IMG/VR virus record: IMGVR_UViG_3300045988_076196
Span: 32,001 to 96,000 of that record
Length of the DNA: 64,000 nt
Strand: one strand, 5' to 3'
From: a virus
Part shown: positions 3,505 to 40,999 of the stretch, piece by piece
Layout: each line of letters begins with the position of its first letter
Position numbering within the stretch: position 1 is the first letter of the stretch
Made by a program: the position numbers and the translations under genes
The notes under the pieces: generated by a model
Seen by the model: the letters and a program-made list of their open reading frames with translations, nothing else
The model's database searches: none
What the model was told of the DNA's origin: nothing

Positions 3505-3645
3505 TTACTGTCTATCAATCCATTCTCTCGCGGCTTTCTCCGTTTCCGCCTTGATCACGATTTTGCCGCTTGCGTCCCGGATATAATAGACGTTTTCGGA
3601 TTCTTGGATCAAAAATCCTTTGTACTGTTCTTCCGTGGTGTTCAC
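3505..3645 (-). CDS. Possible 46-aa protein with an uncertain start codon
   Basis: The open frame encodes NTTEEQYKGFLIQESENVYYIRDASGKIVIKAETEKAAREWIDRQ. A near-full SD (AAGGGAGGTGA) overlaps the only candidate start, a GTG. A GC-rich GCAA-loop hairpin (3479-3496) lies downstream. Confidence 0.3.
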   Translation of the reverse strand: MNTTEEQYKGFLIQESENVYYIRDASGKIVIKAETEKAAREWIDRQ

Positions 3646-3699
3646 CTCCCTTGCATGGTTATATGATAACGCAGAGTCCCGGAAAAGTCAACCCGTCTA

Positions 3700-4913: not shown

Positions 4914-5954
4914 ATGCCAAATAAACCAAAATATATGCCGTCCAATGAAGATGGCAAACTAATCAAAGCGCTGATTAGTATAGAAGGACGCGAATTGAAA
5001 TATCCAGAAATATGCAAAGCGCTCGATATCCCAACCAAAAGCGGCAACACCAAAATATCTCAGCTAGACAAAATTCGCAACTACTGTCAATTAGATACAG
5101 TAGATAATGTCTACCCAACTCGCTATATCGTTCAAGAGGTCTATCCTGAAGCAGACGCACTTATCAACGAGCTAGACAAAGATTCATATCAAGCCGCATT
5201 TGAGGCCGCCCTTTATCAAATATTCTTAAAGACAAATTGCGCCACCATATATGCGTCAACTAGCAACTTACTCAGAATGTTCCAAGAGGTCAATGATAAT
5301 TTCAGCTATACATATAGTCAAGCTGTAGAAAATTCAGAGCATTATGGATATATGAGCTTAGTCAACGGAATTGTATATAACATCCTAGCTCAATGGACAA
5401 GGCGCAAATTGCTTATCATGAAGAACCGCTACGTCATTGATCTAAATAGGGGTTATCGGCTCTATAAGCAACGGTTTAATCCAGAAGGAAAAGAAACATG
5501 GCTCGAAGCTTATGATGTGCCAGAAGATAGCGCAGATCATCAGACCTGCCTATCTATCTATTCTAAAGCCATCAACGAGATAATGCCGCCAAATTGGGGC
5601 AAGGTTATAGATAATAGAGTCTATAAGCCATATGTATCAACAGAGACATATAAAGCATTTGAAGCGCGACTTGCCCAATTAACCCAAGAGGCATTTGGCG
5701 GCGAATATGTTAAAGTCAAAGAGGTCTATATCATTAAGCCAGCCACAAAAGAATGGATTGCTAATCGGCTCTTAGATGTCTATGAGCATTATCCCAGCTT
5801 TGAGAAAATCAATAAAGAGGCTTGCACCAAGATTATTCAGACCAGCCAGCTTAGTTGTATTACAGGCAAACAGCGGCGCGAATTTGTTGACATCAATATG
5901 AGCAACAAGCAGAGCGACAGGCTCAAGGATTTGGTTACTAGTGAAAAGCAATAA
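4914..5954 (+). CDS. HTH-like DNA-binding protein; candidate initiator or regulator, function unproven
   Basis: ORF track, with AAGGAG upstream. The N-terminal segment LKYPEICKALDIPTKSGNTKISQLDKIRNY looks like a helix-turn-helix. It is the only rightward gene between two leftward blocks. Confidence 0.7.
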   Translation: MPNKPKYMPSNEDGKLIKALISIEGRELKYPEICKALDIPTKSGNTKISQLDKIRNYCQLDTVDNVYPTRYIVQEVYPEADALINELDKDSYQAAFEAALYQIFLKTNCATIYASTSNLLRMFQEVNDNFSYTYSQAVENSEHYGYMSLVNGIVYNILAQWTRRKLLIMKNRYVIDLNRGYRLYKQRFNPEGKETWLEAYDVPEDSADHQTCLSIYSKAINEIMPPNWGKVIDNRVYKPYVSTETYKAFEARLAQLTQEAFGGEYVKVKEVYIIKPATKEWIANRLLDVYEHYPSFEKINKEACTKIIQTSQLSCITGKQRREFVDINMSNKQSDRLKDLVTSEKQ

Positions 5955-13131: not shown

Positions 13132-14162
13132 TAAATGATAGTCCACTCATGCGGCAACGCATGATGTGAATGATGGTGAACTCGTAAATGCGAGGTGTGC
13201 GGAGAAATCCGTGCTAACGGTAAAACCCTAAACGTATGAACGCATGGCAATACCGTGGCAAGATTGTGTGATAAATATTAAGATGAAAGGAGGGACAATA
13301 TGAGAAAGATTAGTTTGATTGGCAAGAAATTTGGGAGATTGACGGTTTTATCTGATGCTGGAACAAAAGGTGGTAGAACATATTCTAACTGTCTATGCGA
13401 TTGTGGTAAAATGGTGGTAGTTAGTAACAAACATCTAAAAAGTGGGCATACAAAATCTTGTGGATGTTATAAAAACGAAATTATTGGCGAAATTGGTAAA
13501 ATAACCGGCAAGACAAATATCAAGTATGCGCAAAAGCAAGCACATGAAAATAATAGAAAACATGATATGTCTGGAACAAGATTGTATAGAATTTGGTTAC
13601 AGATGAAACAGAGATGTCACAACGAGAAGAACGACAGGTATCAATATTATGGCGGTAAGGGCGTTTGCGTTTGTGATGAATGGAGAGAAGATTTTCAAGA
13701 ATTTGAACAATGGTCGAATAACAATGGATATAGAGATGACTTGACCATTGATAGAATAAATTCTAATAAAAATTATGAACCGTCTAATTGTCGTTGGATA
13801 TCTCAAAGTGAAAATAGCGCAAGAATACATCGTGATGTGAGATACTGGTGTATTGATGTACAAGGCGGAAGATATGCAGAATTTGACAATATTAGAGAAT
13901 TTTGCAGAAATAATCCTGAGATCGCAAATGAGAATCATGTGAGATACGCTGTTAGCGGAAAATGTGAAAATCAAGGCGATATTATATTTGGCAAGTTTTA
14001 ATATTTTATCACACAATAAGCTGTAACGACTAGCCCATTAGGGCGTAGCTTGTAGGTGAAATTCCTACTCGCAAAGTGCCATCCATCTCTATGAGATGAA
14101 GAGATAGTCTACTCCGACTGTTTGAGCAGTGTTAAAGTATCTCGAAAGAGACGGTATGAAGG
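13132..14162 (+). mobile_element. Group I-like intron carrying an endonuclease ORF
   Basis: The exon frames join exactly (...AVID|YAKTQW...). The 5' exon ends in U and the insert ends in G. There are hairpins with GNRA loops (CATGCG-GCAA-CGCATG; GCGGA-GAAA-TCCGT). CCCTAAA (13226-13232) is shared with the other two inserts. Confidence 0.7.
13300..14001 (+). CDS. Intron-encoded homing endonuclease-like protein (HNH/AP2-like LYRIW...DRI...NCRW family)
   Basis: AAAGGAGGG lies upstream. Motifs are FGRLTVL, a Cys cluster C-x-C-x-C-G...SCGC, LYRIW, YYGGKGV.VC.EW and LTIDRINSNKNYEPSNCRW. It is a paralogue of the gene at 63521. Confidence 0.7.
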   Translation: MRKISLIGKKFGRLTVLSDAGTKGGRTYSNCLCDCGKMVVVSNKHLKSGHTKSCGCYKNEIIGEIGKITGKTNIKYAQKQAHENNRKHDMSGTRLYRIWLQMKQRCHNEKNDRYQYYGGKGVCVCDEWREDFQEFEQWSNNNGYRDDLTIDRINSNKNYEPSNCRWISQSENSARIHRDVRYWCIDVQGGRYAEFDNIREFCRNNPEIANENHVRYAVSGKCENQGDIIFGKF

Positions 14163-18403: not shown

Positions 18404-20248
18404 ATGAAGAGTCAAATGGGAGGACTTCGTAGGAAGTTTATGTCCAACCACTTAATCACGACCGAGGCATGGTCTGGTAAAAGCAAATCGGAAGAGAAAG
18501 AGCAAAACGCAATAGAGTGGCTGACTCTTTTTTAGTTCCGTAGGAATTGGCACATATATGTAGATATGGTGCTTGGTATTAAGCTAAGGCCATTCCAGAT
18601 GGTTATGATATATTTAATGGGTATATCTCCATTCTTTTATGCAATCTGTTCTAGAGGTTTGTCAAAATCATTTATGGCTGGACTTGGAGCAATATGTAAG
18701 ATGAATCTATATCCGTATAGCGAGATTGTTATTACATCGTCTACTGTTCAACAGGCTAATAAATTAGCTGATAAAAAGATACGCGATGAAATAATTAAGA
18801 AGCTCTCAAGTTATTTGTTATACATGTACGAGCATGAGTATATAGTTATAACAAAGCCGGATGATGGTACAAAGATAGAAAATAAGTTAAATGGCTCAAC
18901 TATTGTTGTATTGCCGTGTACTGAGGCAAGCCGTGGTGAACGTGCAACACTGCTTATTTATGAAGAGGTGCGTTTGCTTAAAAAGACAATTCTTGATGCG
19001 GTCTTTGAAAAGATGCCACACCCAAGACAGGCCAAATATATGGATAATCCTGTTTATGGGAATAATAAACGATGGATTGAAGAATGCCAGCGTATCTACA
19101 TTACGTCCGCAAGATATAAATATGAATGGTTTTGGCGTTCTTTTAAGAATGTGTTCACTCAGCATTTTATAGACAAGCGCGTCAATCATAATGTTTTTGC
19201 TGGTGATATATTTATGGCAATAGATAATCGCTTAAAGACGTGGGCTGATTATCGCAAAGACAAGGCGGAGTCTGAGATGGATTGGAAAATGGAAGACCTC
19301 AACCAGATGATAGGCGAGGCTGAGGATGCGTTTTTCACATACGAGCAATTTAAGACAGCGCAAATTTTACAGCATTGTTTTAGACCTCTTACATACCTTG
19401 ATTTCTTCTCTGGTGAACAGGTTGATTTTCCAGAGAAAAAGGAAGATGAAGTGCGACTCGTTGTGGTTGACTACGCATTTTCCAACACTACTGGTTGTAC
19501 AAAGAACGACAATACCATTATTACGCTCATGTCGGCGCATTGGGATAAAAAGAAAAATCGGTTTGAACGTCATATTGATTATATAGAGGGACATGATGCT
19601 TCTGACACAATAGGCGCATCTGATAGAGCGAGATACTTATGGTGGGTATATGATGCGGATTATCTATGTCCCGATGGACGCTCTGGTGGTGAAGTTCTAT
19701 TCAATCATATGACAGAGCCATTGTCTTGGCCGGAATTAGGACTTAGGTGGAATAAGCACGGATTAGGTCTTGCAGATAAATACCAGATGGTTCCACAAGC
19801 AAAATTGGATGATTATAGAAGTCGTGTCGTTGACAAAGATGCAGTTCCAGCTATTATACCCGTGATAGGCACACCAGAGTTGAACTCTACTGGTTGGTTG
19901 TCACTGCGTAAACAGCTTGAAACTAACAATATGAAATTCCTTATTTCTATGCAAGATTATCAGAATGAGCTAACAGATAGTGGTGAATATTATAAATATA
20001 CTGCTGAAGAATTAGTTAATCAGCTTGAGCCATACGGACAGACAGATATGACAATCATAGAGGCAGTTAATCTAAAGACGGTTATTAAGCAAGATAAAAT
20101 CAAACTAGAAGAACCGCGCACAGGAACTAAGGATAGAATTGTAACCATTATGTATGGAAATTATATTATTGACTTGATTGAGAACGCATGGCAACAACAG
20201 TTACAAGAAGATGAGTTTGATGTTGATTCGATTCAATTAGTATATTAG
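18404..20248 (+). CDS. terL: Terminase large subunit with an in-frame TAG at 18533-18535
   Basis: Walker A-like CSRGLSKS, Walker B-like LLIYEEV and nuclease-like VVVDYAFS. GGTGGTGA SD precedes the ATG at 18404, but there is no SD before the track start at 18566. The frame is continuous through the TAG (...AIEWLTLF*RRNWHIYVDMVLGIKLRPFQ). Confidence 0.8.
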
Positions 20249-20398
20249 TATTTGCCTATGAAGCGGTAGCTATGTTGGTGTGTTGCCGTGGAGGCACTAT
20301 TAGGGTTGTGTGGAATCCAAGTTCCAACTGAGGCTTAATCAAAAAAAGTTGAAAATAAAAACACTCAAAAAATATAAAACAAGGAAAGGAGGTTGAAG

Positions 20399-21976
20399 AT
20401 GCCAAAAAATAATGAAGATGTGAAGCTGTCTAAAAATGACCTTCAGGATATTATTGATTTTAGTGCAGGTCTGATGGCGGTTGATAATTTTTACTCACCA
20501 TTTCTGAGCAACCAGCTATTGACCAATCTAAACAATAATCCTCGTCTACCTAATGCAGAGGCGGTAAAAAAGGCGCTCAATGATTATAAGAATAGCGGCG
20601 CCGATTTACAGGGTTTTGTAGAATTTGCATCAGCGTTTGATATGATTTTCAAGCGCACTTTATATTCTTATGCAAATGCGCTATCTTTCGACCTTCAGAT
20701 AACGTGCAAAAATGCATATACAAAGGGCGACTATGAATCAGAGGAATATAAGAAAGACCGGCAGACAGTAGATAATTTCTTGACCAATTTTGATTACAAG
20801 AAAGAATTTTATAATGTTCTGCTAAATGTCTTAAAGCGCGACTCATATTTTACTTGGTTTAGAAAGACTAAGAGCGGTAATCGCGGCAAGATGAAGTATG
20901 CTCTACAAATTATGCCACAAGATTATTGTATGCTTACGGGGTACTTTGAAAAAGGGTTGCTGTGGTCTTTTAATGTACTGTATTTTATGCAACCGGGCGT
21001 AGATATTGAGGGATTTGACCCAAGTCTCAAAAAGACATATCTTGATGCGATTGAAAATGCTGAGTTAAATTACAAGCCGTCTGCGCCACTCGATAAACGT
21101 AATGGTAGTTATGCTCTATGGGCAGATGTATCACCACTTAATGGTGCTTATGCTTGGAAATTTTCTACAGATAACTTTGCTAACAATCCATTCTTATCGC
21201 CATATGTAGCAAATGTTTTACGTAGTGATGAGGTTGGAGAATTACAGTATAACAAAGATCTTATCTCTGCGGCTGGTATTCTAGCTGGTGAGATTAGATT
21301 ATTTGATTCAGCCAAGTCAGGCACGAAGGCGAATCAGTTCGCCATTGATCCGAAAACGCTTGGTGCATTTATGCAAAAGGCGGCTAATGGACTAAAGAAT
21401 GCTGCCAAACTAGCAGCTATACCACTTGAGAATATTAAATATTTCCAATTTGAGGATAAGAACCCAAATAGCTATACAAATGAGCTAACTACAACAGCTG
21501 GTATTGGTACTGGCATTAGCCGTGTTATCTATTCATCCGATAAGATGAGTAATGCTGAACTAGAGGCGGCGCTTAATGAGGTCTATCAGACCATGAAGCC
21601 AATGTATGCTCAGTTCAATAATTTCCTTGATTTCTATGTGAATCAAATGACAAGCAAATATAAGTTTAAGTTTGAGTTTGTTGGTTCTAACTATCAATTT
21701 GAGCGCGATGCTAGATTTGATAAGATGATGAAAATGGCTGATAAGGGGCTTGTACTCAATTCATCTGCATGGGCTAGTGCTGTTGGTATGAACCCTGTCA
21801 CATTTGATAGGATGCTTGCTGAGAGTAAATATACTGGATGGATTGATAAGTATTCGACCATGATGCTTAACGCTAATACATCGTCTTACAAAGATAATAA
21901 GGGCGGGCGTGAACGCAAGAACGCTAGAGATTTGACCGATTCAGGCGAAGCAAGCCGAGAAACATTAGAGGAATGA
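20399..21976 (+). CDS. Portal protein (by size and position)
   Basis: About 525 aa, directly after terL. AAAGGAGG lies upstream. Confidence 0.6.
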   Translation: MPKNNEDVKLSKNDLQDIIDFSAGLMAVDNFYSPFLSNQLLTNLNNNPRLPNAEAVKKALNDYKNSGADLQGFVEFASAFDMIFKRTLYSYANALSFDLQITCKNAYTKGDYESEEYKKDRQTVDNFLTNFDYKKEFYNVLLNVLKRDSYFTWFRKTKSGNRGKMKYALQIMPQDYCMLTGYFEKGLLWSFNVLYFMQPGVDIEGFDPSLKKTYLDAIENAELNYKPSAPLDKRNGSYALWADVSPLNGAYAWKFSTDNFANNPFLSPYVANVLRSDEVGELQYNKDLISAAGILAGEIRLFDSAKSGTKANQFAIDPKTLGAFMQKAANGLKNAAKLAAIPLENIKYFQFEDKNPNSYTNELTTTAGIGTGISRVIYSSDKMSNAELEAALNEVYQTMKPMYAQFNNFLDFYVNQMTSKYKFKFEFVGSNYQFERDARFDKMMKMADKGLVLNSSAWASAVGMNPVTFDRMLAESKYTGWIDKYSTMMLNANTSSYKDNKGGRERKNARDLTDSGEASRETLEE

Positions 21977-30184: not shown

Positions 30185-30319
30185 ATGAGAAAGTTCCTAG
30201 CTGGCGTTGGCGATGCTATTCTCCTTAAGGGTCAGACTATCATCGGCTTTGCCAAAACTCTAACAGAATCAACCTTTGGCTTTACTATTTCTAGTGAAGA
30301 AATCCGTGGCGGCAAGGGT
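30185..30319 (+). CDS. Major tail protein, exon 1 (45 codons)
   Basis: AAGGAGG lies 9 nt before the ATG. The translation is MRKFLAGVGDAILLKGQTIIGFAKTLTESTFGFTISSEEIRGGKG. The frame dies 6 codons later, inside the insert. Confidence 0.6.
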
Positions 30320-30555: not shown

Positions 30556-30767
30556 ATACATGGGAAACTTTCAACGAATATCTCCTTGTGGGAGAAGTAG
30601 AACCTCAAGCATATGGAGGAAGAAAAATCCGACCCCTATAAAATAGGGTGAACATATATTCTACTCTCATGTGAAAGCATGAGCAGACTGCTAGTAATAG
30701 TAAGTCGATATTGGCGTTGCGAACCAATATGAATACAAAATATTTTATACTAAAAGGAATGTTATGT

Positions 30768-31841
30768 ATGTTGTTATCAAAAGTTGTTAAGTTGAAATGG
30801 AACACAAAGAATAGAAAACATTACGAAAGTATTGGATATATATTTACTAAATATGGTGATGAATTTGATGTAAAAGTCGAAGATTTGACACCTTCTAGTA
30901 AAGTTGTTGTTGAGGTTGAATGTGACTTTTGTCATAGCGTTGTTGTGAAAAAGAAATATCAAACATATAATATACAGCATCACGAAAAATATGGGGATTG
31001 TTGTGCATCATGCCAATCTAAAAAGAATAAGTTGATATGTATGGATAAATATGGCGTTGACAATGGTTCTAAGACAGAATATGCCATTGAAAAAATAAAA
31101 CAAGTTAGTATGGAGAGATATGGTGTAGATAACCCATCTAAGATAAGCGATGTAAGACGCAAGTTAAGCGAAATAGCTAAGGCTAATTCAGAAGATGTTA
31201 TCACTAAGAGAAATCAGACCATGCTAGAAAAATATGGCACGACATCACCAATGGACTTAGATATTGTCAAAGAGAAACAACGTGATACTCTATTGAAGAA
31301 TTATGGCGTTGAGCATCCAAAGCAAAGTGAAGAAATAAAAATGAGAGAACGTCAACGGAATATTGAGAAATATGGTGTTGATAATCCTATGAAACTTAAA
31401 TCCGTAAGAGATAAGATAAAGGCAACGTGTCTTGAAAAATATGGCGTTGAATGCTCATTAAGCTCACCAGATGTTAGAGCTAAAATTAACAAAACATTAC
31501 TTGAAAATGGTAATGTAAAAACATCTAAACAACAACTTCAACTACAACAACTATTAAAAGAAATATATGGAGATTGTGACTTAAACAAGCCGTGTGGTTC
31601 ATGCTTTCTTGATTGTGTAATTGAATATAATGGTGTCAATATAGATATTGAATATGATGGTGAATATTGGCATCAAGATACACAACAAGATAGGCGTAGA
31701 GACGAATTTGTCAAATCACAAGGATATAAAATTCTGCGCATTCGTGGAAGATATGACATTCCAAATAAAGAACAACTTGTGAAACATATTGAAGAATTGG
31801 TAAATTCACAACATACATTCGATATAATTAAAATGGTATAA
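30768..31841 (+). CDS. Intron-encoded endonuclease: six YGV(D/E)NP-type repeats plus a C-terminal Vsr/EDxHD-like nuclease domain
   Basis: Repeats of the form KYGVDNGSK, RYGVDNPSK, KYGTTSP, NYGVEHPKQ, KYGVDNPMK and KYGVECSL occur about every 27 aa. The C-terminal segment is NIDIEYDGEYWHQDTQQDRRRDEFVKSQGYKILRIRG. The track start at 30711 is probably too early (AAAGGAA precedes the ATG at 30768). Confidence 0.7.
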   Translation: MLLSKVVKLKWNTKNRKHYESIGYIFTKYGDEFDVKVEDLTPSSKVVVEVECDFCHSVVVKKKYQTYNIQHHEKYGDCCASCQSKKNKLICMDKYGVDNGSKTEYAIEKIKQVSMERYGVDNPSKISDVRRKLSEIAKANSEDVITKRNQTMLEKYGTTSPMDLDIVKEKQRDTLLKNYGVEHPKQSEEIKMRERQRNIEKYGVDNPMKLKSVRDKIKATCLEKYGVECSLSSPDVRAKINKTLLENGNVKTSKQQLQLQQLLKEIYGDCDLNKPCGSCFLDCVIEYNGVNIDIEYDGEYWHQDTQQDRRRDEFVKSQGYKILRIRGRYDIPNKEQLVKHIEELVNSQHTFDIIKMV

Positions 31842-31854
31842 AATATAATTAGGT

Positions 31855-32790
31855 AATGCACTAATCGGTAAATATTATCATGATTCTGGTCTAACTGTTC
31901 AGATTACTGACTCTTGCTTCAAGCTAGAGTATATTGCGGCCAATCTTGGTGTTGATCTACAGAAGGGCGGTCTTGGTGTTTATCAGGGCGAACTGGTTGT
32001 TCAGACTGCTGGTAAGGTCACTCTACCACAGGCTCCAACCGCCGTTGCTGGTTCACTAATTGGTTGGTATCGCACTCCTAGCGAGAAGGATTATACTGTT
32101 GGTACAATTACTGAGGCGTCCGGTGTATACACAATGGAAATTGCCAATGCTAAGGTTGGCGAGAAGTATTGTGTTATGTATTTCTATCAGAATGCTAATG
32201 CTGATAGCATTATCATTCCAGTTGACTATGTACCAGACGAGCTTCACGTCATTATTATCAATGACCTGTTCAATGCGGATATTTCCACTACGAACAATGC
32301 AACTAAGGTTGGCCGTCTAATTACTGATATTCCTAGACTACAGCTTGATGGCGCACAAGACCTTAATCTTACTGCAACTTCCGCAGCTACTGTTTCTCTG
32401 TCTGGCTCTGCTCTAGCAGTTGACTCCACTGACTCTTGCGAGAATGAGTCTTACTATGGTACTATGACCGAGGAAGTCTTTGGCGCAAAGTGGCAGAACG
32501 AAGTAAAGGCTATTGCATTTGAGGATGCTGATATTAGCCTAAAGGCAGCTGGTAGCCAGACTCTAGTTTGCTATGTTCTATTTGACGGCAACAAGGCTCC
32601 TAAAATTGTTGACAATGCCAATTTTACATTTGCTGTCGAGGACGGAACTGAGAATGTGTCTGTCAATGAAAGTGGCGTTGTGAATGCAATCAAGGCTGGT
32701 ACAGCACATATTTCCGCAACTCTAAAGGGTGCTGACCCAGAGGTCAACCCAAGTGTTGTTGGTTATGCTGAGGTCACTGTAACCGCTTAA
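31855..32790 (+). CDS. Major tail protein, exon 2, with a C-terminal Big_2-like Ig domain
   Basis: The continuous frame reads ...NALIGKYYHDSGLTVQITDSCFKLEYIAANLG.... The C-terminal segment VSVNESGVVNAIKAGTAHISATLKG...GYAEVTVTA is Big_2-like. The exact 5' end is uncertain within 31849-31870. Confidence 0.6.
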   Translation, partial: NALIGKYYHDSGLTVQITDSCFKLEYIAANLGVDLQKGGLGVYQGELVVQTAGKVTLPQAPTAVAGSLIGWYRTPSEKDYTVGTITEASGVYTMEIANAKVGEKYCVMYFYQNANADSIIIPVDYVPDELHVIIINDLFNADISTTNNATKVGRLITDIPRLQLDGAQDLNLTATSAATVSLSGSALAVDSTDSCENESYYGTMTEEVFGAKWQNEVKAIAFEDADISLKAAGSQTLVCYVLFDGNKAPKIVDNANFTFAVEDGTENVSVNESGVVNAIKAGTAHISATLKGADPEVNPSVVGYAEVTVTA

Positions 32791-33588: not shown

Positions 33589-34120
33589 AGTTGAATTGCG
33601 TCGAATGCTGAAAGACCCCTTGCAAAAAGCTGTACAATATGTCGTTCAAAAGATATGGAATGAAAATCGCGAAGTAGTACGACTTGTTGTCTACGAGGTC
33701 TATCAGCCAACAGAATATGATAGAACTATGGGTTTTCTTAATGCGTGGGACTTTACAGGCGAATATTACAATCCACCAAGCATGAACTCTGTAGCACATG
33801 GTGAATTTTATTTCAAGCCCAGTGAAATGCCACTTGGCAGCACAGACCCAGAATCAGGAAATTATGCGCAACATATTGGTATTGCTGGAAGTTATAAGGG
33901 CGCAGATGCTCGTGAGTATCTGGCTGATATTATTTACGGTAATATAAAGTGGGGTTCTGGTTTTGGCATTGGAGATTGGCAAAGAAAGCGTGACGCATGG
34001 ACTGAGTTAAATAAGCGCATAGGCAGACGCAAGATGAAACAATGGATGAAAGAAGGCATGGAGGCGGCTGGGCTTACTGTACAGATGCACAATACGCCGC
34101 TTCATGTCGAGGAAAGTTAA
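33569..34120 (+). CDS. Hypothetical protein
   Basis: AGAGGTGG lies 6 nt before the ATG, giving an independent start rather than a frameshift product. Confidence 0.55.
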   Translation: MPTARSEVELRRMLKDPLQKAVQYVVQKIWNENREVVRLVVYEVYQPTEYDRTMGFLNAWDFTGEYYNPPSMNSVAHGEFYFKPSEMPLGSTDPESGNYAQHIGIAGSYKGADAREYLADIIYGNIKWGSGFGIGDWQRKRDAWTELNKRIGRRKMKQWMKEGMEAAGLTVQMHNTPLHVEES

Positions 34121-34121
34121 T

Positions 34122-34637
34122 ATGGTTATATGTGGACTTGATGCAAGCACCTCTTGCACTGGATGGTCTATATTTGATAATGGTGAACTCATTGCATATG
34201 GCGCAATCAAGCCCAAGGGTGATGATTGGCACGATAGGGTAATGGGGCTTACTATGGAATTATCAAAAATATTTAGACAGTATCAACCCACCATTATCTA
34301 TGCAGAGGAAGTGCCATTAAAAAAAGGCGCATCTACTATAGAAAAATTGGGCGCAGTGCAAGGCGTGATTTTAGCATTATGCGCTGGCTTCAAGATAAAG
34401 CCATGCTTCTTGATGCCAAGTAAATGGCGTGGCGACCTTAATCTCTTTGATGGCACAAGAGCCGGATTACAAAGAGATGTTCTGAAGAAAAAAGCCATAG
34501 AGATGGCGAATGAAGAATTTGGCCTCGAATTGGCATGGGTTGCCCCAAGTAGCAAAAAGAATGAGGATGATTGCGCGGAAGGAATCCTCATAGCCTACTC
34601 ACAAATTAAGAAAAAAGGGAGTGTGATGAATGGCTAA
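34122..34637 (+). CDS. ruvC: RuvC-like Holliday junction resolvase
   Basis: VICGLDASTSCTGWS (first catalytic Asp), IIYAEEV (Glu), and a RuvC-like length and hydrophobic pattern. Confidence 0.65.
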   Translation: MVICGLDASTSCTGWSIFDNGELIAYGAIKPKGDDWHDRVMGLTMELSKIFRQYQPTIIYAEEVPLKKGASTIEKLGAVQGVILALCAGFKIKPCFLMPSKWRGDLNLFDGTRAGLQRDVLKKKAIEMANEEFGLELAWVAPSSKKNEDDCAEGILIAYSQIKKKGSVMNG

Positions 34638-35007
34638 AAGTTCAAATTACTCGATACTCGTTGATGCTGAGTTAGACTTAAAACAAATCACACAAAAACT
34701 TAATTCACAGAAATATAAAATAGATGTAGAAGCTAATATGACTGGTGATGCGGCAGACAAACTAAGAAATACAAATTCTGCCACTCGGTCATTAGAGGAA
34801 TCTACAGTGGATCTTACTCTTACATATCAGCAATTTAGACAAGTACTTGATTCTGTTATTGATGTAACGAGTAAAATGTATGAGCAAGTCAAGGCGTTAG
34901 ACACAGCACAAACGGAGTTTAAGAAAGTCTCGGACTTGTCTGGTCAAGCACTTGATGATTATACAGATAAACTTGCTCAGATGGGCAAGACAGTTGGCCG
35001 CACCGGT
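34630..35007 (+). CDS. Tape measure protein, exon 1
   Basis: AGGGAG lies 8 nt before the ATG. The exon ends ...LAQMGKTVGRTG. The frame stops 16 codons into the insert. Confidence 0.75.
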
Positions 35008-35345
35008 AAACCAAATCGGTCTGAGCCGGTATGTACAAATGGTAAATGTGCATAGAGAACAGCCCCTAAACCCTTGAAAGCCTCAAGAGCCTTATCACTA
35101 CAACATGAGGATGAGATAAGCCTGAGTGTGATTATTAACAATGAATCAGCGCGAAAGCAGAAAGACGATAAGGATGATTCCATGGTTGAAAAACCTAAAG
35201 AATCTGTCTTAAATAATGTATGATATTTGAGACAAAAGGGCAGATTGGGCGCGAAGCCGTGATGAGCGGTGTGTCAATCGAATATACAGGGCGACCCTCC
35301 AATTATATAGGGTGAAGAAATATTCAGGAAGGGATTAAAAACCCC

Positions 35346-35374
35346 TTGACAAATTATCTAATATGTGCTATTGT
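35346..35374 (+). promoter_or_regulatory. Sigma70-type promoter inside the tape-measure intron
   Basis: TTGACA-AATTATCTAATATGTGC-TATTGT (N17, TGn). Confidence 0.55.
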
Positions 35375-35400
35375 ATAGATACTTAAAGGAGGTATCTATT

Positions 35401-35625
35401 ATGTTCTTATCTATCGTATTTGCAATTTTTGTTTGGCCTGCCATTGCCATTGCTGGGTTGATTGCATTAGGTAAAGAAATTGGGAGATTGTTTCATAACT
35501 CAAGCGATTCAACCAAGCCGACCACTATACAGTCACAACGTAATATTCATTATGAAACACCTAAAGAAGAAGAGCGACGTACTAATTATTGGGGCATGGA
35601 TGATGAAAGGTGGGGCAAATTGTAA
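35401..35625 (+). CDS. 74-aa membrane protein (intron cargo 1)
   Basis: AAGGAGGT lies 8 nt before the ATG. The TM segment is MFLSIVFAIFVWPAIAIAGLIALG, followed by a polar tail. Confidence 0.55.
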   Translation: MFLSIVFAIFVWPAIAIAGLIALGKEIGRLFHNSSDSTKPTTIQSQRNIHYETPKEEERRTNYWGMDDERWGKL

Positions 35626-35705
35626 TGAATAATCTAGCTACAGTGTTCATCATTGGATGGTTCGTTTACATCATCTTATTTACAATTAGTTGTGTGAGGA
35701 AGTAA
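35625..35705 (+). CDS. 26-aa membrane peptide (intron cargo 2)
   Basis: TAATG overlap with cargo 1. The translation is MNNLATVFIIGWFVYIILFTISCVRK. Confidence 0.4.
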   Translation: MNNLATVFIIGWFVYIILFTISCVRK

Positions 35706-35707
35706 TT

Positions 35708-35824
35708 ATGGAAGATGTATATATTGTAGCAATCATCGCAACGGTAATCGTATTTGCCATCCTTATTTATCTTTGTTCCATGAGTGGCTATACAACAAAG
35801 CGCAAAATCCAGATGATTATATAG
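35708..35824 (+). CDS. 38-aa membrane peptide (intron cargo 3)
   Basis: The ATG is 2 nt after the previous stop. The translation is MEDVYIVAIIATVIVFAILIYLCSMSGYTTKRKIQMII. Confidence 0.4.
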   Translation: MEDVYIVAIIATVIVFAILIYLCSMSGYTTKRKIQMII

Positions 35825-35920
35825 ATATTAATAGAAAGAAACGAGATAAGGATATAGCACAGGTCAAAGCCCAAGAAAAGTATGACAATGATTGGGGATA
35901 TATTAGATAATTTATAACCG

Positions 35921-38900
35921 TCAGAGATGGTTGAAGCCGCAACGGAATTTCGCAAGAATAGTTTTAATGATTCTGATTCGGCAACGCTAGCAAAAGTAGC
36001 GACAATGTTTACTAATGTAGCAGATGAATCTATGTCTGCTGCTGATAGCGCATCGTTTATTATAGCTCAGATGAAGGCATTCAATATAGAGGCTGATGAT
36101 GCTTATAGGATCATCGATTCTGTGAATGCTGTGTCAAATAATTATGCCGTTTCATCTGGGCAATTAGCACAAAATCTAGGTAATATGTCTGCTGCAATGG
36201 CAACAGGCAATAATACATTTGAACAGTCTCTTGGTATGCTCACGGCTATGACTGAAATCACGAGGAATGCACCCAAGGGTTCAAGAGCGCTTATTACTGT
36301 ACAGGGACGTCTGAATCAGGTTGTAGACGAATCCTCAGATACGGGTAAGGCGTTAACAGCATGGTATCAAGAACACGCCATCGCTATTAAAGATGATGAA
36401 GGTCAAGTTCGTAGTCTATATGAAGTATTGACTGATGTAGCAAAGATTTGGCCTAAATTAACCAAGAATGAGCAGATGTACTATCTGCAACAGCAAGCAG
36501 GAACCACACAAACACAGAATCTTGCTGCTCTTCTAAAAAATTATCAAACAGCTATTGATGCAACCAATACAGCGCTAGAATCCAATGGTTCTGCCATGAA
36601 AGAAAATGAAGCCTACATGGAATCAATTTCTGCGAAGGAACAGGCTCTTGCAGCTGAATTTGAGGATTTTGCAAATCGTGTTTTATCTAAAGAGTTGGTT
36701 GGTGGATTCTTGGATGCTGGTAAAGCTATGCTTGATTTTGCCAACAATGATGTTGGTGCGGCCATTACTAGGATCACTGGATTCTCTACTACTATTGCAA
36801 GCTTAGTTGGTATTGCAGGTACGGTTATTGGAAAACTAAGTGAGATGAGAACATTGTTCTCAGCGACAAATGCAGCTGGCGGATTAGCGTCTATTTTAAC
36901 CTCACCAAAGACATTACTTATTATTGCAGGAGTAGCAGCAGCTATTGCTGGAATAGTTGAAGTTGTACAAGCGTTAAATCAGGCAGCAGAAAATAGGAAA
37001 TTTGAAAATCTTGTAAAGAATTTTGAAGAACTTGATAAACAAGCCAAAGACGCTGCTGATAAGCTTGAAGACGTCAAAAAGCGACTTGATGAGTTAAATG
37101 ATACTCCTGCAAAAGATAGAGGTCAAGATTGGCAGAATGAAATAGACAAACTTGAGACATTAAAGCAATATTATGAATATATTGAACAAATGCTTCAAAA
37201 ACAAGCTGCCGCTGCTCAAGAAGCTGCTTATAACGCTCCTCGTACTGTTGGTGTATCTGTTGATAAGAAAGTTGTTGAAACAGACGAGTATAGTAATAAT
37301 TTTCAAACATATATAAAAGAAATCGGTCAATATAAGACTGAACAGGAAGCTGTATATGCTCTTGCTGCTCAAGAGAGTATATCTTTTACAAATGAGCAAA
37401 CAGAGGCGCTATCAAAGTTGTATGATGAGACAGAGATAGCCGCACAGGGTTATGCTTATTTGAAACAAAACCTAGAAGATATTGGCTATACGTTCTCCAA
37501 CAACATTCAGACTGCTTCTGAATATGCATTATCTCAAGGCTCTGCTATGAAGGGTTTGGCCGTACAGATTGAAGAAACTAAAAAATATAGCACAGAGCTT
37601 ACACAGGCACAACAAGAGCAATACGATGCTTACATAAAGAATAATCAAGGACAGTATGAGTATCTGTCAGGTCTTCATAATTTAACAACTGAGCAACAAG
37701 CGTTCGTTGATGGATATAAAGCCATGGTTGATGCCATGGGTGATTATTCAGTTAATGTCGAAAATGTAGCTAATGAAGTTGAAAATATATCTAATTCGTT
37801 TGCGTATTATAATGAAATTGTAACGAACTATCAGGATGCAATGAATGGTGTAACCGGAGCTTCTGAAGCATTCGTTCAATCTCTGTTTGACCAAAATGGA
37901 CAATTAACTACAACAGCTCAAACGGCGCTAACCACAGACAGTGCGATGGCGAGTTACGCTACTTCTATCATACAGGCGCAACAAGCACAGTCTCAGGCTA
38001 ACTTTAATAATCTTATTCAGCAGATTGCATCAGTTGGACAACAGGCCACAATAACTTCCGAACAAATTGCTAATATGATGGTGATGGCTGGTGTTCAAAT
38101 TGGTGCTGGTGGTAGCGCTGAGCTTTCTAGGAATCTACAACGTACATACGAAGCTAAAACTGGCAAGAAAGTATCGCAGGACAAAGCTGCGTACAAACAA
38201 TGGTTACAAGATACCGCCTACCAAATCGGTCAAAATCAATGGAAACGTCAGCAAGAGGAATATGCGAAACAGCTTGAAGCCATAAAAGATTATGTCCCAG
38301 CAGAAAAAGCCGCCGAAGAAGCAGAAAAGCAAGCTAAGAAAGCCCAAAAAGCGCAAGAAAAGGCGGCTAATGAATCTCAGTCGGCATATGAATCAGCCGC
38401 AAAATCAGCAGAGCAAGCCGCGCAAGAAGCAGCTCGTGCCGCTGAACAAGCCGCAAAATCAGCAGAGCAAGACGCGCAAGAAGCAGCTCGTGCCGCTGAA
38501 CAAGCCGCTGAGGAAGCCAAGCAGAAAATTCTTGATTCTATCCAAGAACTAAAAGACGCATCTGATGATTTCTGGGATAGCAAAACAGACGCTGTTGAAG
38601 AAACCAACAAAGAGCTAGACCGCCAAAAGCAACTTGAAGAAAAGCTCAAAGCGCTAGAAGAAGCCAAACAAAAGAAAATCCTACTCTATAAGAACGGCCA
38701 GTTCCAATATGACAAGGATTATGGGACGATTGCTAAAGCTCAAGCTGATTATGAAGAAACCCGCGACAAGATTCAGCGCGAACGTGAGCTAGAGCAGCTT
38801 CAAGAGATGAAGGATAACGCCACTAAGATATTCAATGAAATGAAGGATATTGTTCAGAATGGCGGCAATGTCACTCAAGAGATGATTAACAGTTGGCTTT

Positions 38901-40999
38901 CTCAGATGCAAGCCGATGGGGCTGATTATTATGATAGCAACAAGAAAATGCTTGGTGAATGGCTGGATTGGGCTAAGGGTGCTATCAATGAAATTAGCAA
39001 CCAAGTAGCATCTGCTACTGGAGGTAGCGGAGGCGCTAGTGGTGGTTATGGTTCCGGTAGTGGCAGTGTTTCTGGACAATGGAGTCATCAAGACGAAACA
39101 AATCCATATGTTGCTTTTGGACAAGATACAATCCAAGAGATGCTTGAATGGATAAAAAAGATAGATAAATATCAAGACGATGAAGAGTTTATGAATGAGA
39201 TAATACGAAGAGCTGCTAGTGCTGGATATATTATTCCATCTAATGCAGGACTTCGTGGCAATCTAAAAATGAATCTTCTTGAAGCTCTTCAAAAAATTCT
39301 AGCGCCATATCAAAATCTAATTGAAACTAACACATCCAGCCCGTATGTTTATGCATGGAAGGGTTTATTTAAGGGTGAACTTCAGAGAGGTACTGACCTA
39401 GGTAGCAACACTGTATTTGCAGGATATCAGAACAAACTTTTGTCTGGCGCTATCGATGACCCATATGAAGAGCAGGAATATTATCAACGCAATCAAGCCA
39501 TAAAAGCTCTATACAATGAATACAAGAAAATAACAGACCAGCTTGGCTATATTCCAGATTATCTGAAAGATTTTATGGATATGGGGTCACAAATGCTCAA
39601 CAATGTTGACCTTGTTGCTAGAAAAATGGCTGATAATTACGATAATTTGTCTGCTAGTGGTAAAAGCCTGTTGGATTCTCTCATATCTGGCGAAGAGGAC
39701 TATGAGGCGGCTAATAAGATGCGCATTGCATATCTAGCCGAGAATTATAGTCCAGAGCGTCTTAGATATATGAATCTAGTCCGGGTGGCTGGTTCTTCCA
39801 GAAATGCAATGCAGTTGATGAATCAACGCACAGAGGAAGATAAAGCCCGTGATGAGGCACTGTATGGCGATTGGCTAAATGAGCTACGAGATAAGATAGA
39901 CAAAGCTGGCGGTGTTGTAACAGATGAGATTTACAAGTGGTATCTAAAAACAGCTGGTGGAGCATTAGGTGCTTATGGAACTGGCGACGCTCAGCTATAT
40001 ACAGATGTGTTTGCTGGTGGCGGCAAATATTTATATCGTGATCAAGAAGAGCTAGAGAGGCTTGGTTATCATGGATTCTTAGGTAATTTTGGCAACATCA
40101 GCGAAGGCGGGTTGTCTGATGTAACTAAGAATCTTGTTAAGAGCAAAATCCTAACGTCTACCACAGAAACAAACATTGATAAGCAAAAAGAGCAGATAAC
40201 TCAGAATAATATCAAAGGCATTAAAGATACTCTTGAGAAATATCAAGAGGGATATGGCGCAACTCAACACTGGATTGATGATGCAACCAAATACATCACT
40301 GATACTCTGAATAAAAACAACGAGGCGTTGTTGACAGCTGATGCAGAAACAAGAAAATCTTTACTTGCTCAAAATGAAGAGCTTGTGGGTATTCGTGATT
40401 CTCTTAGTGGTGTTGAGGCTGATGAAGATATTAACAAATTACCCGGCTCAACAACTGCTTACAATGATTGGGAGTTCAAGATTGATAACCCAACAGATGA
40501 AGAACTTGCGGCAAAAGCAGAACAACGTGCGCAAAAGTTGGCAGAACAAATGGCGGCAAATTCAGAGGCATGGTGGAACGCTAGTTCTAAAGCAGAGCAA
40601 GACGCTTTACACAAAGCAAACGAGGAGCTTGCTAAGAAAATCAATGATTTGACTGGTAGTAATTTGACATATGAGGGGTCGACTGGCACATGGTCAAAGA
40701 ACGCCTCTGGTACTCATAATTTCCGTGGTGGTCTATCCTTAGTTGGTGAGCGTGGCCCAGAGCTTAGAGTTCTTGGGCAAGGTGATAGTATCATTCCAGC
40801 TTATCAAACGGCAAACCTATGGAAATGGAGCGGTACAACACCTGAGAGTATGCTCAAAACGCTTGAATTGAGAAAAGGCGATGGGCGAAATTCTTACGTA
40901 TTCAATGTGTCTAAGCTCGAATTACCAAATGTTAACAATGCAAAGGAATTTGTGGCTGGACTAAAGAATTATGCGCTACAGTATAGTTATAAACGTTAA
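35921..40999 (+). CDS. Tape measure protein, exon 2
   Basis: The frame is open from 35918 with no SD. SEMVEAATEFRKNSF...AQMKAFNI... is the typical tape-measure core. It has long coiled-coil regions, Gly-rich and TM-like segments, and about 1690 codons. Confidence 0.9.
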   Translation, partial: SEMVEAATEFRKNSFNDSDSATLAKVATMFTNVADESMSAADSASFIIAQMKAFNIEADDAYRIIDSVNAVSNNYAVSSGQLAQNLGNMSAAMATGNNTFEQSLGMLTAMTEITRNAPKGSRALITVQGRLNQVVDESSDTGKALTAWYQEHAIAIKDDEGQVRSLYEVLTDVAKIWPKLTKNEQMYYLQQQAGTTQTQNLAALLKNYQTAIDATNTALESNGSAMKENEAYMESISAKEQALAAEFEDFANRVLSKELVGGFLDAGKAMLDFANNDVGAAITRITGFSTTIASLVGIAGTVIGKLSEMRTLFSATNAAGGLASILTSPKTLLIIAGVAAAIAGIVEVVQALNQAAENRKFENLVKNFEELDKQAKDAADKLEDVKKRLDELNDTPAKDRGQDWQNEIDKLETLKQYYEYIEQMLQKQAAAAQEAAYNAPRTVGVSVDKKVVETDEYSNNFQTYIKEIGQYKTEQEAVYALAAQESISFTNEQTEALSKLYDETEIAAQGYAYLKQNLEDIGYTFSNNIQTASEYALSQGSAMKGLAVQIEETKKYSTELTQAQQEQYDAYIKNNQGQYEYLSGLHNLTTEQQAFVDGYKAMVDAMGDYSVNVENVANEVENISNSFAYYNEIVTNYQDAMNGVTGASEAFVQSLFDQNGQLTTTAQTALTTDSAMASYATSIIQAQQAQSQANFNNLIQQIASVGQQATITSEQIANMMVMAGVQIGAGGSAELSRNLQRTYEAKTGKKVSQDKAAYKQWLQDTAYQIGQNQWKRQQEEYAKQLEAIKDYVPAEKAAEEAEKQAKKAQKAQEKAANESQSAYESAAKSAEQAAQEAARAAEQAAKSAEQDAQEAARAAEQAAEEAKQKILDSIQELKDASDDFWDSKTDAVEETNKELDRQKQLEEKLKALEEAKQKKILLYKNGQFQYDKDYGTIAKAQADYEETRDKIQRERELEQLQEMKDNATKIFNEMKDIVQNGGNVTQEMINSWLSQMQADGADYYDSNKKMLGEWLDWAKGAINEISNQVASATGGSGGASGGYGSGSGSVSGQWSHQDETNPYVAFGQDTIQEMLEWIKKIDKYQDDEEFMNEIIRRAASAGYIIPSNAGLRGNLKMNLLEALQKILAPYQNLIETNTSSPYVYAWKGLFKGELQRGTDLGSNTVFAGYQNKLLSGAIDDPYEEQEYYQRNQAIKALYNEYKKITDQLGYIPDYLKDFMDMGSQMLNNVDLVARKMADNYDNLSASGKSLLDSLISGEEDYEAANKMRIAYLAENYSPERLRYMNLVRVAGSSRNAMQLMNQRTEEDKARDEALYGDWLNELRDKIDKAGGVVTDEIYKWYLKTAGGALGAYGTGDAQLYTDVFAGGGKYLYRDQEELERLGYHGFLGNFGNISEGGLSDVTKNLVKSKILTSTTETNIDKQKEQITQNNIKGIKDTLEKYQEGYGATQHWIDDATKYITDTLNKNNEALLTADAETRKSLLAQNEELVGIRDSLSGVEADEDINKLPGSTTAYNDWEFKIDNPTDEELAAKAEQRAQKLAEQMAANSEAWWNASSKAEQDALHKANEELAKKINDLTGSNLTYEGSTGTWSKNASGTHNFRGGLSLVGERGPELRVLGQGDSIIPAYQTANLWKWSGTTPESMLKTLELRKGDGRNSYVFNVSKLELPNVNNAKEFVAGLKNYALQYSYKR
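38396..38503 (+). repeat. Tandem 54-nt (18-aa) repeat x2 inside the tape measure gene
   Basis: 38396-38449 and 38450-38503 differ at 1 nt (AAKSAEQAAQEAARAAEQ versus AAKSAEQDAQEAARAAEQ). Confidence 0.85.

What the first reader, a model, noticed from the sequence alone, without database searches (positions are those of the whole stretch)
35008..35920. Tape measure gene interrupted by a group I-like intron with textbook P1/P10 guide pairing
Exon 1 ends ...MGKTVGRTG and its frame stops 16 codons into the insert. The exon 2 frame opens at 35918 with no SD and reads SEMVEAATEFRKNSF..., the usual tape-measure core. A single contiguous guide, 5'-UCUGA|GCCGGU-3' (35020-35030), pairs with the first 5 nt of exon 2 (UCAGA, 35921-35925). 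It also pairs with the last 6 nt of exon 1 (ACCGGU, 35002-35007), placing G.U exactly at the 5' splice site. The insert ends in G. It shares CCCTAAA (35064-35070) with the other two inserts. It shares CGACCC..ATAGGGTGAA (35292-35324) with the tail-protein insert (30630-30655), so the two look related. I do not recall introns in tape measure genes being a commonly described situation.
Basis: partly seen in the sequence, partly recalled or inferred. Interest (0 to 1): 0.7.

Follow-up and report, generated by a model that had tools for sequence, protein, structure and literature searches.

The report
Group I intron in tape-measure gene
A gut phage's tail tape-measure gene is split by a 913-base self-splicing (group I) RNA intron, a known kind of element, which here carries small membrane-protein genes instead of the usual homing endonuclease.

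Summary
Window 35008-35920 is a 913-nt group I intron. It splits a tape measure (TMP) gene into exon 1 (34630-35007) and exon 2 (35921-40999).

Evidence:
- Joining the exons gives an 1818-aa ORF that aligns without a gap to uninterrupted TMPs (TVGRTG|SEMVEAATEF against TVARTADEMVEAATEF).
- The contiguous P10|P1 guide is real and was reached by only 5 of 200,000 shuffles.
- The same site is occupied in at least 25 viral contigs by introns of 601-1066 nt.
- Across these, P2, P3, P4, P5, P6, P7, P9 and a 14-bp long-range helix (here called P9.1) all show compensatory changes. In total 96% of cells pair, against at most 44% when the partners are slid.

Rfam does not detect the window copy. It weakly detects the divergent sister family at the same site (27.9 bits) and detects neighbouring TMP introns above threshold.

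Group I introns in TMP genes were already described in Bacillus cereus prophages and phage JCL1032, so this is not new as a kind.

The unusual part is the cargo. There is no homing endonuclease. Instead a promoter-like site precedes 1-3 tandem small transmembrane-protein genes under purifying selection (dN/dS 0.02-0.18). They sit in the 535-nt loop closed by P9.1.

The parts
34630..35007 (+). TMP exon 1 (126 codons, ends ...MGKTVGRTG). The last 6 nt, ACCGGU, form the 5' strand of P1.
   Evidence: The Pfam PhageMin_Tail match runs across the junction in the spliced protein.
35008..35920 (+). Group I intron, 913 nt, ending in omega-G at 35920.
35020..35030 (+). Internal guide sequence. UCUGA (35020-24) forms P10 with exon 2. 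GCCGGU (35025-30) forms P1 with exon 1, with G35025.U35007 at the splice site.
   Evidence: P1 is kept in all 14 aligned sequences with an invariant U.G.
35031..35053 (+). P2 hairpin AUGUACA/UGUGCAU with a conserved loop (A/G)AUGGUAAA. The exon 1 frame stops here.
   Evidence: Four of 7 pairs show changes on both sides; 100% of cells pair.
35062..35065 (+). P3 5' strand GCCC, pairing with GGGC at 35289-35292.
   Evidence: GCUC/GAGC double change in L044.
35080..35086 (+). P4 5' strand GCCU(C)AA, pairing with UUGGGC at 35245-35250. C35084 is bulged.
   Evidence: Assigned by position relative to the Rfam Q element in sibling introns. Pairing is kept in both families.
35090..35234 (+). P5 extension with four parts: helix 35090-96/35167-73; GAAA hairpin 35150-59; helix 35176-80/35200-04 capped by GGUU-GAAA-AACC (35184-95); variable hairpin 35205-34.
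   Evidence: Compensatory changes. This region is homologous to the P5 insertion of the Rfam-detected intron in L005.
35245..35274 (+). P4 3' strand (35245-50) and P6 (35251-52/35273-74 plus 35256-59/35267-70).
   Evidence: P6 CCGU/GCGG switches to UCCU/GGGA in 5 sequences.
35280..35292 (+). P7 5' strand GAAUAU (35280-85; G35280-C35325 is the presumed guanosine-binding pair) and P3 3' strand (35289-92). This is the R-like element GUCAAUCGAAUAUACAGGG.
   Evidence: The sister family has GACU../..AGUC at the same place.
35294..35325 (+). P8 hairpin ACCCU/AGGGU (35294-98/35309-13), J8/7 GAAGAA, and P7 3' strand AUAUUC (35320-25). This is the S-like element.
35327..35347 (+). GG (35327-28), which forms P9.0 with CC at 35918-19, and the P9 hairpin AAGGG/CCCUU (35329-33/35343-47).
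   Evidence: AAGAG/CUCUU double change in L026.
35346..35374 (+). Promoter-like site TTGACA-17-TGcTATTGT inside the intron. It overlaps P9 and the 5' strand of P9.1.
   Evidence: 10 of 12 positions, with TG. It is conserved in all relatives. Activity was not tested.
35351..35364 (+). 5' strand of long-range helix P9.1 (AAAUUAUCUAAUAU). It pairs with 35900-35913.
   Evidence: At least three independent compensatory variants exist, and the sister family has an entirely different helix.
35401..35625 (+). Cargo gene A: 74 aa, one N-terminal transmembrane helix and an acidic tail ending WGKL. Preceded by Shine-Dalgarno AAAGGAGG.
   Evidence: Homologues have dN/dS 0.06-0.12. No family match.
35625..35705 (+). 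Cargo ORF B: 26 aa, one hydrophobic helix. Its start overlaps the stop of gene A (TAATG).
   Evidence: Seen only in the window lineage.
35708..35910 (+). Cargo gene C/D. In L016, L045, L010 and L015 this is an intact gene of 66-67 aa for a transmembrane protein. Here it is split by a 1-nt deletion in an A run (A4 at 35804-07 instead of A5) into a 38-aa ORF (35708-35824) plus an out-of-frame remainder ending at 35910.
   Evidence: The A4 allele is present in three independent assemblies.
35900..35920 (+). 3' strand of P9.1 (35900-13), then AUAA, CC (P9.0) and omega-G at 35920.
35921..40999 (+). TMP exon 2 (1692 codons plus stop). Its first 5 nt, UCAGA, form P10.

Best explanation
The 913-nt insert is a self-splicing group I intron in the phage's tape measure gene. 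The steps marked 'inferred' below follow the established group I mechanism and were not tested here.

On the late transcript, the first 340 nt fold into the ribozyme core (P1-P9). A 14-bp long-range helix (P9.1, 35351-64 with 35900-13) loops out 535 nt of cargo. This brings the last 7 nt, including the CC of P9.0 and omega-G 35920, next to the core.

Inferred: an external guanosine bound at P7 attacks after U35007, which is held in P1 by the G.U wobble. Inferred: omega-G then replaces it, P10 (35020-24 with 35921-25) aligns exon 2, and the exons are joined. The result is mRNA for one 1818-aa TMP reading ...TVGRTG-SEMVEAATEF...

The intron has no homing endonuclease gene. Its loop carries a promoter-like site, a Shine-Dalgarno sequence and tandem genes for small membrane proteins. 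These are conserved as proteins, and their function is unknown.
For: Host gene:
- The spliced protein gives one Pfam PhageMin_Tail match (residues 113-317) across junction 126|127, and one PHROG TMP match at residues 20-520.
- tblastn gives a single segment covering residues 4-405 against Enterocloster phage TMPs. The alignment at the junction has no gap.

Splice-site pairing:
- The P1/P10 guide was reached in 5 of 200,000 shuffles and is unique among nearby junctions.

Relatives:
- The same site holds introns of 601-1066 nt in two families across at least 25 IMG/VR contigs.
- All TMP relatives at 59% identity or more carry it.

Structure:
- For the named structure, 96.4% of cells pair, against at most 43.5% when slid. 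Fifteen pairs change on both sides, against at most 5 when slid. No shuffle of 500 reached the observed values.
- P9, P9.0 and P9.1 together: 87.6% of cells pair against at most 51%, and 9 pairs change on both sides.
- RNAalifold independently recovers P1, P2, P5, P6, P7, P8 and P9.

Rfam Intron_gpI:
- Sister intron at this site: 27.9 bits, E=4.5e-5.
- Sibling introns in the same TMP genes: 65 and 41 bits.

Cargo:
- dN/dS is 0.02-0.18.
Against: - Rfam finds nothing in the window copy even at E<=10.
- J3/4 is unusually long (14 nt).
- The P7.1/P7.2 helices typical of phage IA introns are absent.
- P3 in the sister family is only a weak 4-bp candidate.
- No RNA or protein data were available, so splicing itself, and whether it is autonomous or needs a protein, is inferred.
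Confidence: 0.92

Rival explanations
1. The TMP is truly split into two genes. A 141-aa protein ends in the insert, and a 1690-aa protein starts at ATG 35927. The insert would be an ordinary intergenic moron cassette.
For: Automatic gene calls on the source contig list 141-, 74- and 1690-aa products. An in-frame ATG sits 6 nt into exon 2. The insert has a promoter-like site and real small genes.
Against: The break falls inside the PhageMin_Tail domain, at its most conserved motif, and is gapless against uninterrupted homologues. The ATG is the conserved internal Met of (D/S)EMVEAATEF and has no Shine-Dalgarno. A moron would not need a covarying ribozyme core, a guide pairing both exon ends, or a helix tying its two ends together.
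Confidence: 0.04
2. It is a decayed group I intron that no longer self-splices. Either it needs a phage or host protein factor, or the gene is dead.
For: Rfam gives no hit. There is no endonuclease or maturase ORF. P7.1/P7.2 are absent. One cargo gene is frameshifted.
Against: Both exons stay open, 1818 codons in all. Core helices are kept by compensatory changes across two families whose exon 2 DNA is only 66-73% identical. That pattern means selection on the RNA fold. The TMP is essential for a tailed phage. Dependence on a protein cofactor cannot be excluded.
Confidence: 0.04

Closest known systems
Group I introns TMP-IVS1/2/3 in tape measure genes of Bacillus cereus-group prophages, and the TMP intron of Lactobacillus delbrueckii phage JCL1032 (Tourasse & Kolsto 2008, PMC2504315)
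   Same: Both are group I introns inserted in frame in a conserved part of a TMP gene. Several introns can occur per gene. A stop codon lies early in P1/P2. Several lack a complete homing endonuclease gene. An accompanying intron in the tail tube gene is also seen here.
   Different: No nucleotide similarity was found to any deposited phage: megablast gave no hit, and blastn gave one 47-nt match. Those introns are classed IA1/IA2. This one lacks P7.1/P7.2 and is invisible to Rfam. Small membrane-protein cargo is not reported for them in the parts of the paper I read.
T4 nrdD (sunY) intron (from my own knowledge; not checked here)
   Same: The catalytic core is compact at the 5' end. The ORF lies 3' of the core in a P9-region loop, so the 3' splice site is hundreds of nt from the core and is brought back by pairing.
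   Different: The sunY ORF is a homing endonuclease (I-TevII). Here the loop holds 1-3 small membrane-protein genes.
Rfam RF00028 Intron_gpI hits in sibling TMP introns (L005 5320-5634, L042 6639-6959)
   Same: They share a P5 extension sequence (CUACAACAU.AGGAUGA...CGAAAG.AGAAA...AUGGUU.AAA.CCUAAG), the Q-like element ..GCGAAGCC.. and an S-like J8/7.
   Different: Those have the canonical R and S elements (GACUA/UAGUC), a short J3/4 and P7.1/P7.2. The window intron has GAAUAU/AUAUUC in P7 and scores below reporting level.

Membership tests
Group I intron | P1 helix between the 5' exon end and an internal guide, with a U.G wobble at the 5' splice site | tested here: met
   ACCGGU/GCCGGU with U35007.G35025. 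The U.G is invariant in 14 of 14 relatives.
Group I intron | Terminal guanosine (omega-G), with P10 and/or P9.0 defining the 3' splice site | tested here: met
   G35920. P10 is 5 bp and contiguous with P1. P9.0 is GG/CC, with a GC, GU or AU pair at that position across relatives.
Group I intron | Conserved core: the P4-P6 and P3-P7-P8-P9 domains in canonical order, with the P3/P7 pseudoknot | tested here: met
   All helices are placed in canonical order. 96.4% of cells pair, and P2, P3, P4, P5, P6, P7 and P9 each contain pairs that change on both sides. RNAalifold agrees except for the pseudoknotted P3.
Group I intron | Guanosine-binding G-C pair in P7, flanked by R/S-type sequences | tested here: inconclusive
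   G35280-C35325 sits where the G of GACUA pairs with the C of UAGUC in canonical introns, and this G-C pair is invariant. The P7 sequence GAAUAU/AUAUUC departs from consensus, and binding cannot be tested here.
Group I intron | Rfam RF00028 score at or above the gathering threshold (50 bits) | tested here: not met
   No hit in the window at E<=10. The sister family at the same site scores 27.9 bits. This is a curated detection criterion rather than a biological definition.
Group I intron | Guanosine-dependent self-splicing | not testable with these tools
   Needs in vitro transcription with GTP and Mg2+, or RT-PCR.
Subgroup IA (typical phage introns) | P7.1/P7.2 helices between P7 and P3' | tested here: not met
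   Only 3 nt (35286-88) separate P7 from P3'. The tail-gene intron and the L005 upstream intron do have inserts there.
Mobile intron with a homing endonuclease | Intron ORF with a LAGLIDADG, GIY-YIG, HNH, His-Cys or PD-(D/E)xK domain | tested here: not met
   The cargo ORFs are 26-89 aa, hydrophobic, and have no Pfam, PHROG, NCBIfam or PADLOC match.

The most novel reading that the evidence does not exclude
In this phage clade the intron acts as a stable carrier for accessory genes. Because the intron removes itself from the mRNA, a promoter-driven operon of 1-3 small membrane proteins can sit inside an essential late gene without harming it. The benefit of these proteins would explain why an endonuclease-less intron stays fixed at one site across deeply diverged TMP alleles. 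One speculative example of such a benefit is exclusion of superinfecting phages at the membrane, where incoming TMPs act.
Probability: 0.25. Interest if true: 0.7.

Novelty: new variant of a known kind. Interest (0 to 1): 0.42.

Why it matters
There are three practical points and one conceptual point.

1. Gene callers split this TMP into 141-aa and 1690-aa fragments. Tail-length inference or TMP-based typing of such gut phages will therefore be wrong unless introns are modelled.
2. Rfam's single group I model misses this intron family entirely. Gut-phage intron counts based on it are therefore underestimates.
3. TMP genes in this clade carry up to three or four introns, which makes them a natural system for studying how introns pile up in one gene.

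Conceptually, the intron carries selected, non-endonuclease cargo: small membrane proteins with their own promoter-like site. This is uncommon for phage introns. If confirmed, it would show introns serving as safe insertion sites for accessory genes.

Tried and rejected
- **Rfam.** Gathering mode and E-value mode on the window and on 34800-36100 gave no group I hit.
- **Similarity to known phages.** Megablast gave none. blastn gave one 47-nt match in an unannotated faecal phage record.
- **Single-sequence MFE fold.** It did not look like a group I intron and preferred an alternative P1 hairpin without the U.G. I rejected that hairpin because the sister family has only the GCCGG guide.
- **My first P4 and P5 coordinates.** They were off by one and were corrected.
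- **CCCUU (35071-75) with AAGGG (35237-41) as P4.** It would cross the P4 assigned by homology, and the sister family gives only 4 of 5 pairs. It remains a possible tertiary contact.
- **CCCTAAA as a shared intron signature.** Rejected.
- **Other kinds of intervening sequence, judged from the sequence.**
  - Group II intron: no GUGYG start and no reverse transcriptase.
  - Intein: the frame contains stop codons.
  - Translational bypass: 913 nt is far too long.
- **Prophage copies.** A search of 185,579 species genomes found none for the window family. The sister family occurs in one gut MAG contig.
- **Cargo function.** No match in Pfam, PHROGs, NCBIfam or PADLOC.
- **Literature.** Searches for intron-borne morons and for Enterocloster phage introns found nothing relevant.

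Full report
**1. Observation**

- Exon 1 (ATG 34630) reads ...MGKTVGRTG and ends with ACCGGT at 35007. Its frame continues for 15 codons and stops at 35053-55.
- The exon 2 frame opens at 35918 and reads (P)SEMVEAATEFRKNSF. The first ATG (35927) has no Shine-Dalgarno.
- 35020-35030 is TCTGAGCCGGT. Its 3' half pairs with the last six exon 1 bases, with G.U at the splice site. Its 5' half pairs with the first five exon 2 bases. Base 35920 is G.
- A contiguous guide of this kind appeared in only 5 of 200,000 shuffles of the first 60 intron bases. Among 961 alternative junction pairs within 15 nt either way, only the proposed pair has one.

**2. The host gene is one gene**

- Joining 34630-35007 to 35921-40999 gives an open 1818-codon frame.
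- Pfam PhageMin_Tail matches residues 113-317 as a single stretch across the junction at 126|127. PHROG 4211 (tape measure) matches residues 20-520.
- tblastn against deposited phages gives single segments covering residues 4-405. The best matches are the roughly 100-kb Enterocloster bolteae phages at about 40% identity.
- The alignment is gapless at the junction: TVGRTG|SEMVEAATEF against TVARTADEMVEAATEF.
- The insert therefore sits inside the most conserved motif of the domain, and its removal at exactly these bases restores the protein.

**3. Relatives**

- A scan of IMG/VR for the shared CGACCC..ATAGGGTGAA element returned 44 loci. Of these, 16 hold the window's insert at 88-93% identity over the first 350 nt. 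Eight hold a second family (F2) that is alignable only in the 3' core. Four hold the tail-gene insert.
- In every case the insert is at the same TMP codon boundary (GRTG|SEM...). It begins AAACC.. or UAAUA.. after ACCGGU and ends ..AAC(C/U)G. Length is 601-1066 nt.
- All TMP relatives at 59% identity or more begin their match at residue 127, so they carry the insert. Contiguous, intron-less alleles appear only at 40-46% identity.
- The window itself corresponds to a 96,327-bp Caudoviricetes contig (ENA ERZ27270388). Its gene calls split the TMP into 141, 74 and 1690 aa.

**4. RNA structure**

I assigned helices by comparing the two families with each other and with sibling introns that Rfam does recognise. 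The model for the window is:

| Element | Coordinates |
|---|---|
| P1 | 35002-07 / 35025-30 |
| P2 | 35031-37 / 35047-53 |
| P3 | 35062-65 / 35289-92 |
| P4 | 35080-86 / 35245-50 |
| P5 extension | 35090-35234, three hairpins, two capped by GAAA |
| P6 | 35251-74 |
| P7 | 35280-85 / 35320-25 |
| P8 | 35294-98 / 35309-13 |
| P9 | 35329-33 / 35343-47 |
| P9.0 | GG 35327-28 / CC 35918-19 |
| P10 | 35020-24 / 35921-25 |

- On a 14-sequence alignment, 96.4% of cells form standard pairs, against 33-44% when the 3' partners are slid by 1-3 columns.
- Fifteen pairs change on both sides, against 2-5 when slid. No shuffle of 500 reached the observed values.
- Clear compensations:
  - P2: ACA/UGU to UGC/GCA.
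  - P3: GCCC/GGGC to GCUC/GAGC in L044.
  - P6: CCGU/GCGG to UCCU/GGGA.
  - Tetraloop hairpin: GGUU..AACC to GGUC..GACC and GGUA..UACC.
  - P7: GAAUAU/AUAUUC against GACU../..AGUC in F2.
  - P9: AAGGG/CCCUU to AAGAG/CUCUU.
- RNAalifold, run without my structure, recovers P1 (with the U.G), P2, P5, P6, P7, P8 and P9. It cannot represent the P3/P7 pseudoknot.

**5. How the distant 3' splice site is reached**

- The core ends at 35347, 573 nt before the 3' splice site.
- AAAUUAUCUAAUAU (35351-64) is the exact reverse complement of AUAUUAGAUAAUUU (35900-13). This 14-bp helix, which I call P9.1, closes a 535-nt loop. It leaves only AUAACCG between itself and the splice site.
- Relatives keep the helix through compensatory changes: UCUAAU/AUUAGA, UUCAAU/AUUGAA, UUUAAU/AUUAAA and UUUAAG/CUUAAA. 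F2 has a different 12-bp helix, AAUUGUCUAUUG/CAAUAGACAAUU, at the same place.
- This explains why both ends of the variable region are conserved while its interior is not.

**6. Rfam**

- The window copy gives no hit at any threshold tried.
- The F2 intron at the same site scores 27.9 bits for Intron_gpI. That is E=0.0017 in 26 kb and 4.5e-5 in 700 nt, with P8, J8/7, P7' and P9 recognised.
- Other introns in the same TMP genes of relatives score 65.4 and 40.6 bits.
- The window intron departs from the model in three ways: P7 sequence, a 14-nt J3/4, and the absence of P7.1/P7.2. I treat the negative as a limit of the model.

**7. Cargo**

- No variant carries an endonuclease-sized ORF.
- Directly after P9 every copy has a promoter-like site. 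In the window it is TTGACA-17-TGcTATTGT at 35346-74, matching 10 of 12 positions. A strong Shine-Dalgarno follows, then one to three tandem, overlapping small ORFs.
- Each ORF has one or two hydrophobic helices at the N-terminus and a charged tail ending in a W/Y-G motif.
- The window has three:
  - Gene A, 74 aa (35401-35625).
  - A 26-aa ORF B (35625-35705).
  - Gene C/D (35708-35910), intact at 66-67 aa in four relatives (L016, L045, L010, L015). Here a 1-nt deletion in an A run (35804-07) frameshifts it. The same allele occurs in three independent assemblies.
- Pairwise dN/dS between relatives is 0.02-0.18 for every cargo type compared, so these are real genes.
- None matches Pfam, PHROGs, NCBIfam or PADLOC. 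Database homologues are unnamed.
- The conserved C-terminal residues of the last gene are partly dictated by the 3' strand of P9.1, which they overlap.

**8. What is known**

- Group I introns in TMP genes are documented. Tourasse and Kolsto (2008, PMC2504315) describe TMP-IVS1, 2 and 3 in B. cereus-group prophages. These are IA1/IA2 introns, in frame, with early stop codons, and several lack a complete endonuclease gene. The same paper describes an intron in a tail tube gene and lists the TMP intron of phage JCL1032.
- The situation in this window (TMP intron, tail tube intron, and a third insert with an HNH gene) repeats that pattern in a gut phage lineage.
- What I did not find described is a phage group I intron whose conserved cargo is a set of small membrane-protein genes. 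My literature search was limited.

**9. Verdict**

- The finding is real and correctly interpreted.
- As a kind it is known. As a variant it has three notable properties: it is invisible to the standard model, it lacks P7.1/P7.2, and it carries selected non-endonuclease cargo in a loop closed by P9.1.
- Splicing itself remains inferred.

Noticed in passing
window 30319 to about 31850: Second intron, in the tail tube gene. Exon 1 is 30185-30318, and the exon 2 frame opens at 31849. It shares P8/J8-7 with the TMP intron and has inserts between P7 and P3' that look like P7.1/P7.2. It carries a 376-aa ORF (30711-31841) with DUF7487 plus DUF559/MTES_1575, which are endonuclease-like domains. I could not place its 3' splice site: no G precedes an in-frame codon boundary near 31849-31855.
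   Followed up: partly
window 13135 to about 14100: Probable third insert. ORF 11248-13134 matches phrog_8308 only to profile position 644 of 847. It is followed by about 165 nt of non-coding sequence and then an HNH endonuclease ORF (13300-14001). Intron type and boundaries were not determined.
   Followed up: partly
window 20253-20369: Rfam 'drum' RNA (RF02958, 49.7 bits against a gathering score of 43). It lies between a 560-aa ORF (18566-20248) and the portal gene (20393-21976).
   Followed up: no
L005 (minus strand) 5320-5634, 3528-3934, 4005-4346; L020 and L026 downstream of ..AYNEV; L072 downstream of ..HIIDAV: TMP genes of relatives hold further group I introns. One lies about 25 codons upstream of the site studied here, and one or two lie downstream. 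That makes up to three or four introns in one TMP gene. The window TMP has only the one.
   Followed up: partly
window 35804-35807: Cargo gene C/D is frameshifted by an A4 run where relatives have A5. The allele recurs in three independent assemblies. It could be a fixed pseudogene, or a slippery site that is read through.
   Followed up: partly
window 34104-34637: A RuvC-like Holliday junction resolvase gene lies immediately upstream of the TMP gene, inside the tail module. The Enterocloster phages have the same arrangement.
   Followed up: no
window 35071-35075 and 35237-35241: CCCUU in the long J3/4 is complementary to AAGGG just before the 3' strand of P4. Pairing would cross P4 and form a pseudoknot. 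The sister family keeps 4 of 5 pairs. It may be a tertiary contact.
   Followed up: partly
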